A DNA stretch of 64,000 nt from Naegleria gruberi (lineage: Eukaryota). The DNA lies in NCBI GenBank assembly GCA_000004985.1, contig GG738851.1, one strand, 5' to 3'. The notes beneath the pieces were generated by a model, which searched no databases, was not told the origin of the DNA, and saw only the letters and a list, made by a program, of their open reading frames with translations. This document shows, piece after piece, positions 13,545 to 64,000 of this stretch. A program made the translations under genes and the position numbers. How positions within the stretch are numbered: position 1 is the stretch's first letter; every line of letters starts with the position of its first letter.

Positions 13545-13617
13545 GCCCGTCTAGCTCAGTCGGTAGAGCGCAAGGCTCTTAACCTTGTGGTCGTGGGTTC
13601 GACCCCCACGGTGGGCG
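13545..13617 (+). tRNA. tRNA-Lys (anticodon CTT)
   Basis: 73-nt cloverleaf: acceptor GCCCGTC/GGTGGGC (two G-U wobbles), D-arm GCTCAGTCGGTAGAGC, anticodon stem CAAGG/CCTTG with loop CTCTTAA, T-arm GTGGGTTCGACCCCCAC. Confidence 0.9.
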
Positions 13618-17654: not shown

Positions 17655-17728
17655 GCCTTCCTAGCTCAGTTGGCAGTAGCGCTGTCCTAGTAAGACAGAG
17701 GTCTTGGGTTCGATTCCCAAGGGAGGCA
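17655..17728 (+). tRNA. tRNA-Thr (anticodon AGT)
   Basis: 74-nt cloverleaf: acceptor GCCTTCC/GGGAGGC (one G-U), anticodon stem CTGTC/GACAG with loop CTAGTAA, T-arm TTGGGTTCGATTCCCAA. One D-stem mismatch. Confidence 0.75.
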
Positions 17729-31591: not shown

Positions 31592-31712
31592 AAAGACTAC
31601 AGCACCACAGGTTCCCAAGTTGTCTCCAACCTCAGCACTGATGTGGCTCGACGATGCTTAACTTCTCAAATCGGACGGGATGAGGTGCATGAATCGTGAT
31701 ATGGCCGTAGCC
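31592..31712 (-). rRNA. 5S ribosomal RNA (copy 1)
   Basis: Reverse complement reads GGCTACGGCCATATCACGATTCATGCACCTCATCCCGTCCGATTTGAGAAGTTAAGCATCGTCGAGCC…GGTGCTGTAGTCTTTT, a 5S consensus with a Pol III T-run terminator. Confidence 0.9.
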
Positions 31713-33991: not shown

Positions 33992-34112
33992 AAAGACTAC
34001 AGCACCACAGGTTCCCAAGTTGTCTCCAACCTCAGTACTGATGTGGCTCGACGATGCTTAACTTCTCAAATCGGACGGGATGAGGTGCATGAATCGTGAT
34101 ATGGCCGTAGCC
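33992..34112 (-). rRNA. 5S ribosomal RNA (copy 2)
   Basis: Near-identical to copy 1 (one substitution), with the same conserved upstream block and T-run. Confidence 0.9.
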
Positions 34113-39531: not shown

Positions 39532-39652
39532 AAAGACTACAGCACCACAGGTTCCCAAGTTGTCTCCAACCTCAGTACTGATGTGGCTCGACGATGCTTA
39601 ACTTCTCAAATCGGACGGGATGAGGTGCATTCATCGTGATATGGCCGTAGCC
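39532..39652 (-). rRNA. 5S ribosomal RNA (copy 3)
   Basis: Same as copies 1 and 2 except for a local TTC to GAA change (…CACGATGAATGCACC…). Conserved upstream block and T-run terminator. Confidence 0.85.
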
Positions 39653-60370: not shown

Positions 60371-62222
60371 TTACAGATTTGGACTACCAACAAGGAGGAA
60401 ATTATCACGAGTCTTTCTCTCAAACTTGTGATTGAATTCATTAATGTGGTGAGTTTTCTTTTGTGGAGTGTGAGGCATGCTTAAATGTTGACCTGCACTA
60501 GCTCCAGATCCAGAAAAATTCAAAGATTGAGTCACATCTCCCAATTGACTAGATTTAAAGAAACTCTTTGGAGGTGTAAATGCTCGTTGTTCTTTGACAC
60601 CCATAATTCTTCCTAATCCTCTCGTTGACAAGGGTTTGTAGACTCTTCCTACCGAGGCAGGAGAGGTTAAATCCTTTGGTTTTCTGTCATCTTTAATATT
60701 CGGTCAATCAAGGTGATATTGTCAAAATTTAACTTACACTTAACCTTAATAGGTGTAATGGGAGAATCAAATTCTCTTCTATTTTCCTCATTTTCTGATC
60801 TTGGTGGCGTGGATTCAACACTCTTGAAAGATCTTGCTGATGAAGTTCCTGAATGTAGTCTCTTTGGAGTGAGGTTTGTTGGTGTGGTTGTTGACTGATA
60901 GAATACTCGATCCTCATTAAGCTTTTTACTAATTTCTAAACTGAGTTGATTCCTTGTTTTGGGTGGTGTTTTAAACATGTCTGCCGATCTAGGAATTGTT
61001 TTTTCACAAGATTGACTGATAGAAACTACCTGTAATGGGAATAGTCTCTCTGTTGCAGTACTTGCTACAGAGAGTGGTAATATTTGAGTTCTATCCTCTC
61101 CTTCTCTCCACATTTTGGCTTGTTTTTCCTTTAAAAATTGCTGTTGAATTCCAATAACCATACCAGGTCTACATACTCTGAGCCATCCAATGACTTCAGT
61201 TGCTGTGAATTGGTAATGTTTCATCATGTAGAGGGCAATCATTGTTCCAGTTCTTCCAAGACCTGCCTTACAATGGACTGCAATGATAGACTCCTCTTCA
61301 GCTATTTGAAGGAATTTCCTGATATGATCCTCACTTGGTGTACTTCCATCTGGGAAGTATAAATCGAAATGATTAATTCCATTACTGATGAATTTCTTTC
61401 GATCATAGAGAGCTCTGTTCAATCTAACAATTGCTGACACTCTCCACTGTTTGAAAGGAGAAATATAATCCTCTGGAGTTAAATGTACATATCCATCACT
61501 TGAAATTCTTCTACTAGATGGTGATGAAAAGGCCAAAAATTTACCGGGCACTACCCAGTTAATGTCTCCATTTTCGACCTTTTCAAGTCTAAGGTATTCC
61601 TCAGCGTCAAATGAATTGTATTTGAAAAATCCAAGGGATATTCCTTTAACAAGACCTTTACAACAATCCAAAATTGACAAGCTGAATGTTGATAAATTTT
61701 GAGAGGCATCCCTGAAAGGAATGAGAGGAGGATAAACAAAATTGAAAGGTTTACATGCATCTTCTGCTGTCTTATCCTGAGAAATGACCATGTAGGCAGC
61801 TGCCAAGAATGCAGCATTTGCTCTCTTTTGACCATCAAAACTTGTCACTAATACTATTCTCTTATTTGTTGTCTGTAACATAATGTATTGAATCAATGTA
61901 AATTAACTCAGAACGCAAGCAAACATACCCTTAACAAGTTATCAATATGTCTACATATTTCTACAGTATATCCTAAATTTACAGGACCAAAATCATGACA
62001 GAATGGTTCATAAACATATCTCTCGTCAAGCATGACAAAAGTTGATTGAGGATTGTCATAGGCCGATGGAGTCCTCCTCAGAGAAACCCAATATAAACGA
62101 TCCTCAATTAGACAAATTGCATCCTTCAGATCTCCTCCCATCTTTTTGGGGCTATTAGAAAAGTTGGTATTGCTCTCTCGCTTTGTGCTACTGTTGCTGG
62201 GCGAGATGGGCAGTATTGTCAT
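60371..62222 (-). CDS. CDC14: CDC14-family dual-specificity phosphatase, 3 exons (62222-61929, 61872-60738, 60690-60371)
   Basis: DSPn N-domain (…DRLYWVSLR…FCHDFGPVNL…), then GTATGT/TTACAG intron (56 nt) into TTNKRIVLVTSFDGQKRANAAF… Catalytic loop HCKAGLGRTG. Third exon reached through a 47-nt GTAAGT…TTAAAG intron; a 71-nt alternative exists. Confidence 0.8.
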
Positions 62223-62985
62223 ACTATTTGTTTCTATTAAATTGAGAAGGAAAATTGATGATTAATAATAAGTAGAGAAAAGGTGATCGGATCCGATATA
62301 TAGAATGCTATATTAATGATGATACAAACCTGAATTAATACTCTCCTTCACTGAAATGGATGATATCGATAAATTCATCATCCTATTAGAAAGAGTCGAT
62401 GAAGCCGAGGTTGCTCTACTCGGTGTTGAAGAATTCATATTCAATCTCTTTAGATACTGATTCTCTTACTCCCTTAAAAATCTCGGAACAATAAGGTAAA
62501 AATCAAAGAAACTCTGCGTTCGTTCGCCTCTTGATAAACGACTAGTTTTTTTTGAGTTTGTTCAATAGAGAGAACATAGTCTAAGGATGCATTGTTGAGA
62601 GAAGTTTTGAAGCGTAATTTTACTTTAAAAAAATTACGATCGGGGAGAGATGAAATAAATTCTTTCAAGACTTGTCCTTCTTAAGAAAAGTCAATGTGTT
62701 GCGAAGAATTTTACATACGGTTGGGTTTCTGGTGGTATACATCATGATGTGTATTAAGCATTCGAAATATTTTCAAATATTATGCTCTTTGTTGAGATTG
62801 TTGGATGTTCCTAAATCAAAAAGGTGTAAAGGAGAAGTAACTTGTTTATAATTTGGGACATGCGAATACTTGCAATATTGTTTCTCATAAATGATTTGGA
62901 AACGAAAAAGGATCAAACTGGTTTATAGTGAAAGAGGAAAAAGAGGTTTAAATCGTTTTATATTTCGCAAATTAAGAATTTGCAT

Positions 62986-63107
62986 GGCTACGGCCATATC
63001 ACGATTCATGCACCTCATCCCGTCCGATTTGAGCAGAAAAATGATGCCCAATCCAACAAGGTCATCTTTGAATTGACTTGTTGGAGATTCTTCGTTGTTC
63101 TATTATT
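62986..63107 (+). pseudogene. 5S rRNA variant or pseudogene (intact promoter and 5' 48 nt, diverged 3' half)
   Basis: GGCTACGGCCATATCACGATTCATGCACCTCATCCCGTCCGATTTGAG matches the other copies, then diverges (CAGAAAAATGATGCCC…). Upstream block AAATCGTTTTATATTTCGCAAATTAAG is conserved. Confidence 0.55.
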
Positions 63108-63545
63108 TAACAGAGCGAGAAATCATACCAGATGAATCCTCACAGGAAAAAATTGAGAAGGAGGGCAACAACCACTTTGATTATTGACCAAATTCTGGCT
63201 ACTCATCCTCTTGAGTGAAAGGAGGAGAGTTTCCAGATTCACATTTCAGTCTGCATGATCTCTGAAATGTCCTTCAAGGTAAGTATAAAGAAAGAAAAGA
63301 GTGTAAATTCAAACAAATCTTAAAAACTTTTCAAGATGTATGATTTTTTGAAACCTGAATTATGGTCATTGTTTGTTTTTTTATGATTTGAATTCTTTGA
63401 AATAGTTGAACATGAAGCAAACACAGAATTGATATAATTACTTTGAAATTTATGTAGGATAATTATTTTACATTATTGAATATTTACATTTTGGTTTTAT
63501 TTACAATGATTGCCTAGGTTTTCAAAATTTTGAGTTTTATGGAGA

Positions 63546-63761
63546 TTACCACTTTTTGAATAGTTTGTTTCTCATTTCTAAAGTGTTATGTGATTGAGAT
63601 TTAGAAGTTTTACTTGTTTCATTTCCAACAGAATTCAATGTTTTGTAATCAATTAAATTTCTTCTTCTTGTTCCACCAATAATATTATCCAGAGAAATTT
63701 CGGAATTAAATTGTGAAGTATTATTGGAGGAATTATACATATTTCTTCTTGTTGAGACCAT
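63546..63761 (-). CDS. Small orphan Ser/Asn-rich basic protein, family member B (MVSTRRNMYNSSNNTS…GGTRRRNLIDY…)
   Basis: 71-aa ORF, divergently oriented to the partial gene at 63964. Shares NII(S/G)GTR(H/R)RN(N/L)IDY with the 38237-38530 protein. Confidence 0.4.
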   Translation of the reverse strand: MVSTRRNMYNSSNNTSQFNSEISLDNIIGGTRRRNLIDYKTLNSVGNETSKTSKSQSHNTLEMRNKLFKKW

Positions 63762-63963
63762 TTTCTAATTGTTGTTTTGTTATTTTCTTTTGTTGTTGAT
63801 TTTCATTAAATTTCCTTTCATCAAAATATTGATAGAAAAATTCAACTTCTTGTGATGAGTGGAAAATCCACCAAAAATCGGAATCACAAAATTAGTGGAA
63901 ATCATCATGGAAATAAATAGATCAACTATCCACAACAAAACAAAATAACTAAATAAGAGCAAA

Positions 63964-64000
63964 ATGCCAGCTAGAAATACTTCATCAAATACTTCATCTT
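63964..64000 (+). CDS. 5' end of another family-A member (MPARNTSSNTSS…), truncated by window end
   Basis: ATGCCAGCTAGAAATACTTCATCAAATACTTCATC is near-identical to the start of the 38530 minus-strand gene. Confidence 0.4.
   Translation, partial: MPARNTSSNTSS

What the first reader, a model, noticed from the sequence alone, without database searches (positions are those of the whole stretch)
62940..63110. 5S gene copy with intact promoter and 5' half but scrambled 3' half (variant 5S or pseudogene)
At 62986 the plus strand carries the conserved upstream block (AAATCGTTTTATATTTCGCAAATTAAG…) and 48 nt identical to the 5' half of the functional 5S copies. Downstream of GATTTGAG the sequence diverges, keeping only faint resemblance (…TTGTTGGAGATTCTTCG… against …GGTTGGAGACAACTTGG…). 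There is no proper T-run at the expected 3' end. Decay restricted to one half with a preserved promoter is unusual. It could be a transcribed aberrant 5S-derived RNA, a recombination breakpoint, or a young pseudogene.
Basis: seen in the sequence. Interest (0 to 1): 0.5.

Follow-up and report, generated by a model that had tools for sequence, protein, structure and literature searches.

The report
Truncated 5S gene remnant beside U1
This is a broken-off copy of a Naegleria gruberi 5S rRNA gene that keeps its upstream promoter and first 48 bases and then runs into unrelated DNA next to a U1 snRNA gene; it is an ordinary kind of pseudogene in a family of about 280 copies.

Summary
The window is Naegleria gruberi nuclear DNA. 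It probably corresponds to scaffold_7, about 512-576 kb.

At 62986 (+) there are 48 nt identical to the 5' end of two of the three full 5S genes in the window. They are preceded by the same conserved upstream block found at all copies, about -50 to -10, with a TATA-like core.

The "scrambled 3' half" is not decayed 5S. Ungapped identity is 21/71. Alignment scores are at chance level (p about 0.15 global, 0.47 local). Rfam gives 22 bits against a threshold of 38. There is no 5S fold and no T-run.

The break at +48/+49 lies just before box A (+50..+64), so box A and box C (+80..+97) are both gone. No 3' half occurs in the window sequence within about 1 kb on either side.

The sequence after the break is the 3' flank of a convergent minus-strand U1 snRNA gene (63286->~63113). 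That gene has a canonical 5' end, a four-way junction and an Sm site, but scores below the Rfam threshold.

Verdict: a 3'-truncated 5S gene remnant created by a rearrangement breakpoint. It is either recent or kept homogeneous. It cannot make 5S rRNA.

Whether its intact promoter still fires is untested. If it does, transcription would run antisense through U1 to the first T4 at +343.

Interest is low. The unannotated, divergent U1 gene is the more useful by-product.

The parts
62936..62976 (+). Conserved 5S upstream promoter region. It has a purine-rich motif (GGAAAAAGAGG, about -50..-40) and a 27-nt block AAATCGTTTTATATTTCGCAAATTAAG (-36..-10) with a TATA-like core TTTATATTT.
   Evidence: The block is found only at the 4 5S loci in the window, with a chance expectation of 0. 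In alignments the flanks beyond it are unalignable between copies, while the block and the -50 motif are kept. The candidate agrees with every position at which the three full copies agree.
62977..62985 (+). Unconstrained spacer (-9..-1, AATTTGCAT) between the promoter block and +1.
   Evidence: It matches the other copies at only 4-6 of 9 positions. So this copy is not a fresh duplicate of any 5S gene in the window.
62986..63033 (+). 5S rRNA remnant, nucleotides +1..+48 (helix I 5' strand, loop A, helices II/III 5' strands, loop C). It is the 'TC' variant at positions 21-22.
   Evidence: It is 48/48 identical to copies 34112 and 31712 and 46/48 to copy 39652. Rfam 5S aligns it with high posterior probability only over this part.
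63034..63112 (.). Sequence unrelated to 5S that replaces +49..+119. It is the 3' flank of the convergent U1 gene. It holds an imperfect hairpin at 63053-63085 (8 bp + bulge + 3 bp) and an A5 run (T5 on the minus strand) at 63037-63041.
   Evidence: Similarity to the 5S 3' half is at chance level. The first 33 nt (63034-63066) are unique in the window. There is no box C and no helix I partner, and the only box A consensus match is a loose, misplaced one at +61 that is expected by chance. The hairpin is not significant: no perfect stem of 11 bp or more occurs anywhere in the window.
63113..63286 (-). U1 spliceosomal snRNA gene, convergent with the 5S remnant. It has the 5' end AUACUUACCU, helix H, stem-loops 1-3, the Sm site AAUUUUUU and a 3' stem-loop.
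   Evidence: Rfam RF00003 gives 40.7 bits end to end (model positions 1-166). E is 1.6e-8 on 1.3 kb and 7.7e-7 on the whole window, and the score is below the gathering score of 69.5. The MFE fold gives the four-way junction plus a single-stranded Sm site plus SL4, with z = -3.2.

Best explanation
This is a 3'-truncated 5S rRNA gene, a gene remnant or pseudogene. One of the roughly 280 dispersed N. gruberi 5S genes lost everything from nucleotide +49 onward through a DNA-level rearrangement, either a deletion or a junction with neighbouring DNA. The promoter region (about -50..-10) and nucleotides +1..+48 now abut the 3' flank of a convergently oriented U1 snRNA gene. The remnant cannot give 5S rRNA. 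It lacks the 3' strands of helices I-III, all of helices IV/V, box C, box A at its normal position (+50..+64) and the T-run terminator. The 69 sites expected to be constrained in a working gene show no substitution (48 coding nt plus the invariant block positions), while the unconstrained -9..-1 spacer differs between copies. So either the copy was a working gene until a recent truncation, or its 5' part is still being homogenised or selected. Shown: the anatomy, the sharp breakpoint, the loss of the 5S fold and of the normal internal promoter elements, and the adjacent U1. Inferred: the mechanism (deletion or rearrangement), the recency, and transcriptional silence.
For: The organism is N. 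gruberi: the CDC14 ORF is 99% identical to an N. gruberi protein. Three full 5S genes score 96-105 bits. The candidate shares the upstream block and an exact 48-nt prefix. Identity then drops to 21/71, which is random, with no gradient. Rfam 5S gives 22 bits against a gathering score of 38. There is no 5S-like fold. Box A (+50..+64) and box C (+80..+97) are present in the full copies. Box C is absent from the candidate, and its only box A consensus match is a loose, misplaced one at +61. The candidate also has no helix I partner. No T4 occurs before +343. No 5S 3' half occurs in the window sequence on either side, 62000-62985 and 63036-64000. The non-transcribed upstream block is present, so the copy did not arise by retroposition. 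N. gruberi has 279 putative 5S genes, about 15 of them short or partial entries, so truncated copies are expected. This copy is not in that list (PMC3369914 Table S1). Truncated 5S pseudogenes are common in dispersed 5S families of filamentous fungi (Rooney & Ward 2005 as cited in PMC5555474).
Against: Only one genome copy of the junction was seen. No independent assembly or read data covering 63033/63034 could be retrieved. The perfect preservation of promoter and 5' half is equally compatible with continued function as a promoter. Feng et al. did not find TFIIIA in N. gruberi, so 5S transcription there may depend mainly on the upstream block that the remnant keeps. The ancestral state is unknown. 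The N. lovaniensis CDC14 locus has neither a 5S gene nor U1.
Confidence: 0.8

Rival explanations
1. The remnant is still an active Pol III promoter. TBP/TFIIIB assembles on the intact upstream block and Pol III starts at 62986. There is no T-run, so Pol III reads antisense through the whole U1 gene and stops at the first T4 (63328-63331) or T6 (63344-63349). This gives an RNA of about 345-360 nt with a 48-nt 5S leader. Alternatively, the bound complex interferes with or terminates the convergent U1 transcription.
For: The promoter block and the -50 motif are undamaged, and all invariant positions are kept. The first T4 lies 42 nt beyond the U1 5' end. TFIIIA was not detected in N. gruberi, while TBP, BRF, B'' and TFIIIC subunits were (PMC3369914). 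The strong conservation of the upstream block at dispersed copies suggests that initiation is driven from upstream.
Against: No expression data are available. The full copies do carry canonical box A and box C at the classical positions (PMC3369914 Fig. 2 legend), which argues that the internal region matters, and the remnant has lost it. Failure to find TFIIIA by BLAST is weak evidence of absence. The candidate region has no structure beyond chance.
Confidence: 0.1
2. This is an old, fully decayed 5S pseudogene. Its promoter and 5' half were recently overwritten by gene conversion from a working copy, which made the boundary sharp.
For: The total length roughly fits. A T3 (TATTATTTAAC) sits near +120 and an 8-nt GTTGGAGA sits near the box C position. 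The -9..-1 spacer differs from the other copies while the flanking block and coding part are identical or consensus.
Against: The 3' part is statistically indistinguishable from random sequence. Decay to that level would also have erased the homology that conversion needs. The spacer inside the supposed conversion tract is not converted. The 3' part is more simply explained as the U1 3' flank.
Confidence: 0.04
3. This is an assembly artefact. Reads were mis-joined inside the repeated 5S sequence, which fused a 5S locus to the U1 locus.
For: 5S is a family of about 280 copies with identical sequence. Repeats cause mis-joins. The junction could not be confirmed in a second assembly.
Against: A mis-join across a repeat normally leaves a complete repeat copy, not a copy cut at +48 and followed by unique sequence. 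There are no Ns or other anomalies around the site. The window lies within a contig reported as 693,645 bp.
Confidence: 0.04
4. This is a genuine second 5S class, or a 5S-derived SINE or retroposed chimera.
For: 5S-headed SINEs and 5S chimeric retrocopies exist in other eukaryotes (established knowledge, not tested here).
Against: Rfam is below threshold, there is no 5S fold and no box C. The non-transcribed upstream block is present, which an RNA-mediated copy would not carry. There is no A-rich tail, no target-site duplication and no flanking repeats. The neighbouring U1 is on the opposite strand. The tail sequence is unique in the window.
Confidence: 0.02

Closest known systems
Truncated 5S rRNA pseudogenes of dispersed 5S families in filamentous fungi (birth-and-death evolution; Rooney & Ward 2005, as summarised in PMC5555474)
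   Same: The 5S family is dispersed. The copies lack an intact coding sequence and therefore the 5S fold. They are classed as pseudogenes for that reason.
   Different: The lineage is different (Heterolobosea). Here the upstream promoter block is also retained intact, and the break coincides with the start of the internal control region and with a neighbouring U1 gene.
The Xenopus laevis oocyte-type 5S 'pseudogene', a 3'-truncated copy next to the gene (from my own knowledge: Jacq, Miller & Brownlee 1977; not checked here)
   Same: It is a 5S copy that keeps the 5' part and lacks the 3' end.
   Different: The Xenopus copy keeps about 100 nt and is part of a tandem repeat unit. This one keeps only 48 nt, is a solitary dispersed copy, and has lost the whole internal control region.
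Functional N. gruberi 5S rRNA genes (279 putative copies with TATA box, internal control region and T-run; PMC3369914)
   Same: It has the same upstream block with the TATA-like core and the same first 48 nt. It belongs to the local 'TC' variant shared with copies 34112 and 31712.
   Different: It lacks +49..+119, the internal control elements at their normal positions and the terminator. It is not included in the published list of 279.
Linkage of 5S genes with snRNA genes (for example the 5S-U6-U5-U1-U2-U4 clusters seen here in metagenome contigs L003/L004/L006/L008; 5S-U1 linkage is discussed in fish and crustacean cytogenetics papers listed)
   Same: 5S-derived sequence and a U1 gene lie within 100 nt of each other.
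   Different: In those cases complete genes are organised in repeat units. Here a single broken 5S copy meets a single U1 gene tail to tail. None of the three full 5S genes in the window has an snRNA neighbour.

Membership tests
5S rRNA (Rfam RF00001), functional gene | Covariance-model score at or above the gathering score (38 bits) | tested here: not met
   The score is 22.0 bits with E = 0.1 on a 1.3-kb search. The three full copies score 96-105 bits.
5S rRNA (Rfam RF00001), functional gene | Three-way junction fold with helix I closing the 5' and 3' ends, plus helices IV/V | tested here: not met
   The MFE fold has no 5S helices (z = -1.2). No 9-nt partner for GGCUACGGC is found downstream, even allowing G-U pairs; the best candidates pair at only 7 of 9 positions.
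5S rRNA (Rfam RF00001), functional gene | Internal control region (box A about +50..+64, box C about +80..+97) | tested here: not met
   Both boxes are found at those positions in a full copy. Box C is absent from the candidate. Only a loose box A consensus match is present, displaced to +61, which is expected by chance.
5S rRNA (Rfam RF00001), functional gene | Pol III terminator T-run directly after about +119 | tested here: not met
   The full copies have T4-T6 there. In the candidate the first run of 4 or more T is at +343.
5S rRNA (Rfam RF00001), functional gene | Species-specific upstream promoter block with TATA-like core | tested here: met
   62950-62976 matches the block with 0 mismatches. 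The block occurs only at the four 5S loci.
3'-truncated 5S pseudogene / gene remnant | Unambiguous homology to part of the 5S gene, ending abruptly, with the rest absent nearby | tested here: met
   The prefix is 48/48 identical and the rest is at random level. No 3' half occurs in the window sequence on either side, 62000-62985 and 63036-64000.
3'-truncated 5S pseudogene / gene remnant | No functional product (not transcribed, or transcript not used) | not testable with these tools
   This needs RNA-seq, a Northern blot or Pol III ChIP from N. gruberi.
U1 snRNA (Rfam RF00003), for the neighbouring minus-strand gene | Covariance-model score at or above the gathering score (69.5 bits) | tested here: not met
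   The score is 40.7 bits with a full-length match to model positions 1-166. E is 7.7e-7 on the whole window.
U1 snRNA (Rfam RF00003), for the neighbouring minus-strand gene | 5' end AUACUUACCU for 5' splice-site pairing, a four-way junction (helix H, SL1-3), and a single-stranded Sm site followed by a 3' stem-loop | tested here: met
   AUACUUACCU is at nt 1-10. The SL1 loop contains AUCAUGCAG and the SL2 loop contains UUUCAC. The Sm site AAUUUUUU is at nt 133. The MFE fold gives exactly this architecture, with z = -3.2.
5S-derived SINE / retroposed 5S chimera | A 5S head with internal promoter, an A-rich or repeat tail, target-site duplications, multiple copies, and no upstream non-transcribed sequence carried along | tested here: not met
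   The internal promoter is lost. There is no tail and there are no flanking repeats. The tail sequence is unique in the window. The upstream block is present. Genome-wide copy number was not testable.

The most novel reading that the evidence does not exclude
In N. gruberi, TFIIIA has not been found and every 5S copy carries a strongly conserved upstream block. In such a species the orphaned 5S promoter may still be active. It would then drive Pol III from 62986 through unrelated sequence and antisense across the entire U1 snRNA gene to the first T-run at 63328-63349. The product would be an RNA of about 345-360 nt with a 5S leader and an antisense-U1 body. Alternatively, a stable TFIIIB/Pol III complex there could act as a roadblock that defines the end of U1 transcription.
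Probability: 0.08. Interest if true: 0.55.

Novelty: new member of a known kind. Interest (0 to 1): 0.17.

Why it matters
By itself it matters little. It is one broken copy in a large, dispersed, birth-and-death-type 5S family, and it should be annotated as a 5S remnant rather than as a gene or variant.

It has two modest uses. First, it is a natural deletion construct: upstream promoter plus +1..+48, without the internal control region. Expression data from it would show directly whether Naegleria 5S transcription is driven from upstream, which bears on the reported absence of TFIIIA.

Second, checking it exposed a divergent U1 snRNA gene that scores below the Rfam threshold. The text of a 2008 genome-wide screen implies that N. 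gruberi U1 was not recovered. This copy can seed a Heterolobosea-specific U1 model.

Tried and rejected
(1) Diverged 5S 3' half. Alignment against dinucleotide shuffles and random genomic 79-mers is not significant.

(2) Insertion splitting a 5S gene. No 3' half occurs in 62000-62985 or 63036-64000 (the window ends at 64000), and there are no direct or inverted repeats suggesting a mobile element.

(3) Hairpin at 63053-63085 as a terminator or processing signal. It is only 8 bp + bulge + 3 bp. No perfect stem of 11 bp or more exists in the window, and the terminator scan found nothing.

(4) Synteny. The N. lovaniensis CDC14 locus (L001) keeps the CDC14/PRPP-synthetase pair but has no 5S or U1 within +-10 kb. 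The N. fowleri protein and the N. gruberi NCBI protein were not retrievable.

(5) Independent confirmation of the junction. N. gruberi contigs exist in ENA assembly ERZ929261 (L002, L009) but stop before 62500. Look-ups of five ORFs around the junction found nothing.

(6) Other copies elsewhere. The metagenome scan with a 24-mer of the 5S 5' half gave one Naegleria-like full 5S (L005, 1 nt different, different upstream sequence) and five contigs of other eukaryotes. None was truncated. The scan of prokaryotic genomes gave one chance bacterial hit, and two viral scans gave none.

(7) tRNA-like companion element upstream of U1, as in trypanosomatids. No tRNA was found near U1.

(8) The N. gruberi genome paper is not held in the library, and no supplements are held for the 2008 snRNA screen.

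Full report
**Origin of the window.** The ORF at 60667-61896 (-) is a CDC14 phosphatase, 99% identical to a Naegleria gruberi protein. The next relatives are N. lovaniensis and N. fowleri at 58%. G+C is 32-37% throughout.

The spacing of the three full 5S genes in the window is 2400 and 5540 nt (starts at 31594, 33994 and 39534). This equals the spacing of three entries on scaffold_7 in the published list of N. gruberi 5S genes: 543593, 545993 and 551533 (PMC3369914 Table S1). By inference the window is about scaffold_7:512,000-576,000.

**Check of the observation.** Rfam finds three full 5S genes on the minus strand at 96-105 bits. The first 20 nt of 5S occur exactly four times in the window. 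The fourth is at 62986-63005 on the plus strand, and the chance expectation is 0.01.

The 27-nt upstream block occurs only at these four places. For the candidate it lies at 62950-62976, with no mismatch to the degenerate consensus. Alignments show that the flanks of the four loci are otherwise unalignable. The exceptions are this block (-36..-10) and a purine-rich motif at about -50..-41.

The candidate is identical to copies 34112 and 31712 for 48 nt (62986-63033) and matches copy 39652 at 46/48. There is no T-run at the expected end. The first run of 4 or more T on the plus strand is at 63328, which is +343.

**The 3' part is not 5S.** For +49..+119 the ungapped identity to the full copies is 21/71, the random level for this composition. 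A global alignment of 63036-63114 to the 5S 3' half plus trailer scores no better than 15% of dinucleotide shuffles and 14% of random genomic 79-mers. The best local match is the 8-mer GTTGGAGA, which 47% of shuffles reach.

Rfam's 5S model gives 22 bits (E = 0.1) against a gathering score of 38. Nearly all of that comes from the 5' half. The 123-nt stretch does not fold like 5S, with z = -1.2, and there is no downstream partner for the helix I 5' strand.

The consensus patterns quoted in PMC3369914 place box A at +50..+64 and box C at +80..+97 in the full copies. The candidate has no box C. Its only box A match is a loose one, displaced to +61, which is expected by chance. The break at +48/+49 therefore falls immediately before the internal control region and removes it completely.

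The 'scrambled 3' half' is a breakpoint followed by foreign sequence, not one-sided decay.

**What the foreign sequence is.** A permissive Rfam scan shows a U1 snRNA on the minus strand from 63286 to 63116. The match is full length (model positions 1-166) at 40.7 bits. E is 1.6e-8 on 1.3 kb and 7.7e-7 on the whole window, and the score is below the curated threshold of 69.5.

The sequence starts with AUACUUACCU. Its MFE fold has helix H, three stem-loops around a four-way junction, a single-stranded AAUUUUUU Sm site and a terminal stem-loop, with z = -3.2. The SL1 loop contains AUCAUGCAG and the SL2 loop contains UUUCAC, both close to the classical protein-binding loops (comparison from my own knowledge).

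The U1 gene and the 5S remnant converge. Only about 80 nt (63034-63112) lie between the 5S break and the U1 3' end, so this stretch is the U1 3' flank. The hairpin in it (63053-63085) is 8 bp + bulge + 3 bp and is not significant.

The locus sits in a roughly 1.5-kb divergent intergenic region between CDC14 (-) and a plus-strand ORF that starts at 63964.

**How it arose (inferred).**
- The non-transcribed promoter block is present and U1 is on the opposite strand. This excludes retroposition, a 5S-headed SINE and a template-switch chimera.
- No target-site duplication, tail or flanking repeat is present.
- No 5S 3' half lies in 62000-62985 or 63036-64000, which argues against a simple insertion that split the gene.
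- The most economical reading is an in-place 5S gene that lost its distal part by a deletion or rearrangement reaching into the U1 3' flank.

The -9..-1 spacer is unconstrained. It matches between full copies at 5-8 of 9 positions, and the candidate matches them at only 4-6 of 9. The candidate is therefore not a fresh duplicate of a window copy.

Yet the 48 coding nt and all block positions that are invariant in the full copies, 69 sites in all, carry no change. Under neutrality this limits divergence since the loss of function to a few per cent. So either the truncation is recent, or the 5' part is still homogenised or selected.

An old pseudogene whose 5' part was overwritten by gene conversion is less likely. 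The 3' part is fully random, and the spacer inside the supposed tract is not converted.

**Context from the literature.** Feng et al. (PMC3369914) list 279 putative 5S genes scattered over many N. gruberi scaffolds. They report a TATA box, an internal control region and T-run terminators. About fifteen entries are shorter (80-112 nt) and of low similarity. Partial copies therefore exist in this genome.

The present 48-nt remnant, at about scaffold_7:574,986, is not in their table. The three full window copies are, and so is a further copy about 2.8 kb beyond the window end (578765-578884).

In filamentous fungi with dispersed 5S genes, truncated copies are common and are treated as pseudogenes (Rooney & Ward 2005, cited in PMC5555474). 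The kind is known and this is a new instance of it.

**What remains open.** The same paper did not find TFIIIA in N. gruberi, while TBP, BRF, B'' and TFIIIC subunits were found. If 5S initiation there depends mainly on the strongly conserved upstream block, the remnant could still recruit Pol III.

With no T-run, Pol III would then read antisense through the entire U1 gene and stop at 63328-63349. I give this about 10% for any stable product. The full copies keep canonical box A and box C, and a BLAST-based failure to find TFIIIA is weak evidence. No expression data were available.

**Comparative attempts.**
- The N. lovaniensis CDC14 locus keeps the CDC14/PRPP-synthetase pair but has no 5S or U1.
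- N. gruberi contigs in an ENA assembly (L002, L009) stop short of the site.
- Five ORF look-ups around the junction failed.
- A metagenome scan found one Naegleria-like full 5S with a different upstream sequence (L005), plus contigs from other eukaryotes.
- Scans of prokaryotic and viral collections were uninformative.

The junction therefore rests on one assembly. A mis-join is unlikely, because a mis-join would normally leave a complete repeat copy, but it is not formally excluded.

**Verdict.** This is a 3'-truncated 5S rRNA gene remnant with an intact promoter and nt 1-48, joined to the 3' flank of a convergent, divergent U1 snRNA gene. It is ordinary in kind and of low interest. The sub-threshold U1 gene is the more useful by-product. 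A 2008 screen ran an unfiltered Infernal search for U1 in N. gruberi, and from its text it apparently did not recover one (PMC2396436; my inference).

Noticed in passing
window 63113-63286 (-): A divergent U1 snRNA gene scores below the Rfam gathering score (40.7 against 69.5 bits) but has a canonical 5' end, four-way junction, Sm site and 3' stem-loop. A 2008 genome screen ran an unfiltered Infernal search for U1 in N. gruberi. Its text implies that U1 was not recovered (PMC2396436). No tRNA-like companion lies upstream.
   Followed up: partly
L003, L004, L006, L008 (JGI metagenome contigs Ga0075111_1048119, Ga0307929_1030839, Ga0307987_1029065, Ga0233403_10017539): Contigs of an unidentified eukaryote pack 5S, U6, U5, U1, U2, U4, SRP RNA and U3 within about 2 kb. 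L008 alone carries U1, U5, SRP, U2, U6, U4 and 5S. Their 5S shares the 24-nt loop C region with Naegleria but differs elsewhere.
   Followed up: no
window 34091-34092 and 31691-31692 (-), 63006-63007 (+): Two of the three full 5S genes and the remnant carry UC instead of GA at positions 21-22. Rfam flags this as breaking one base pair (100 and 96 bits against 105). Copy 39652 and the metagenome relative L005 have GA. So a slightly mispaired 5S variant is shared by neighbouring copies.
   Followed up: partly
window 62936-62946 and the equivalent -50..-41 of the copies at 34112 and 31712: A purine-rich motif (GAAAAGGAGG-like) lies upstream of the TATA-containing block at three of the four 5S loci and is weaker at 39652. 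The conserved 5S promoter region therefore extends to about -50.
   Followed up: partly
L005:539-657 (-) (Ga0247722_10036048): A metagenome contig carries a 5S gene that differs from N. gruberi 5S at one position, but its upstream region lacks the N. gruberi block. The upstream promoter sequence seems to turn over between close relatives. The neighbouring 361-aa ORF was not identified.
   Followed up: no
beyond the window end (scaffold_7:578765-578884 in PMC3369914 Table S1; about window position 66,770): The published list has another full-length 5S entry about 3.8 kb downstream of the remnant. Together with the three in the window, this region of scaffold_7 is locally rich in 5S copies. Two tRNA genes lie at 13545-13617 and 17655-17728.
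   Followed up: no
L002 and L009 (ENA ERZ929261, PRJEB11402): An assembly labelled as a metagenome contains contigs encoding proteins identical to N. gruberi ones (PRPP synthetase, CDC14 exon). That sample therefore holds N. gruberi or a very close strain.
   Followed up: no
window 63975-63998 (+): There is a perfect tandem duplication of the 12-mer AAATACTTCATC at the start of the plus-strand ORF that begins at 63964 and runs off the window.
   Followed up: no
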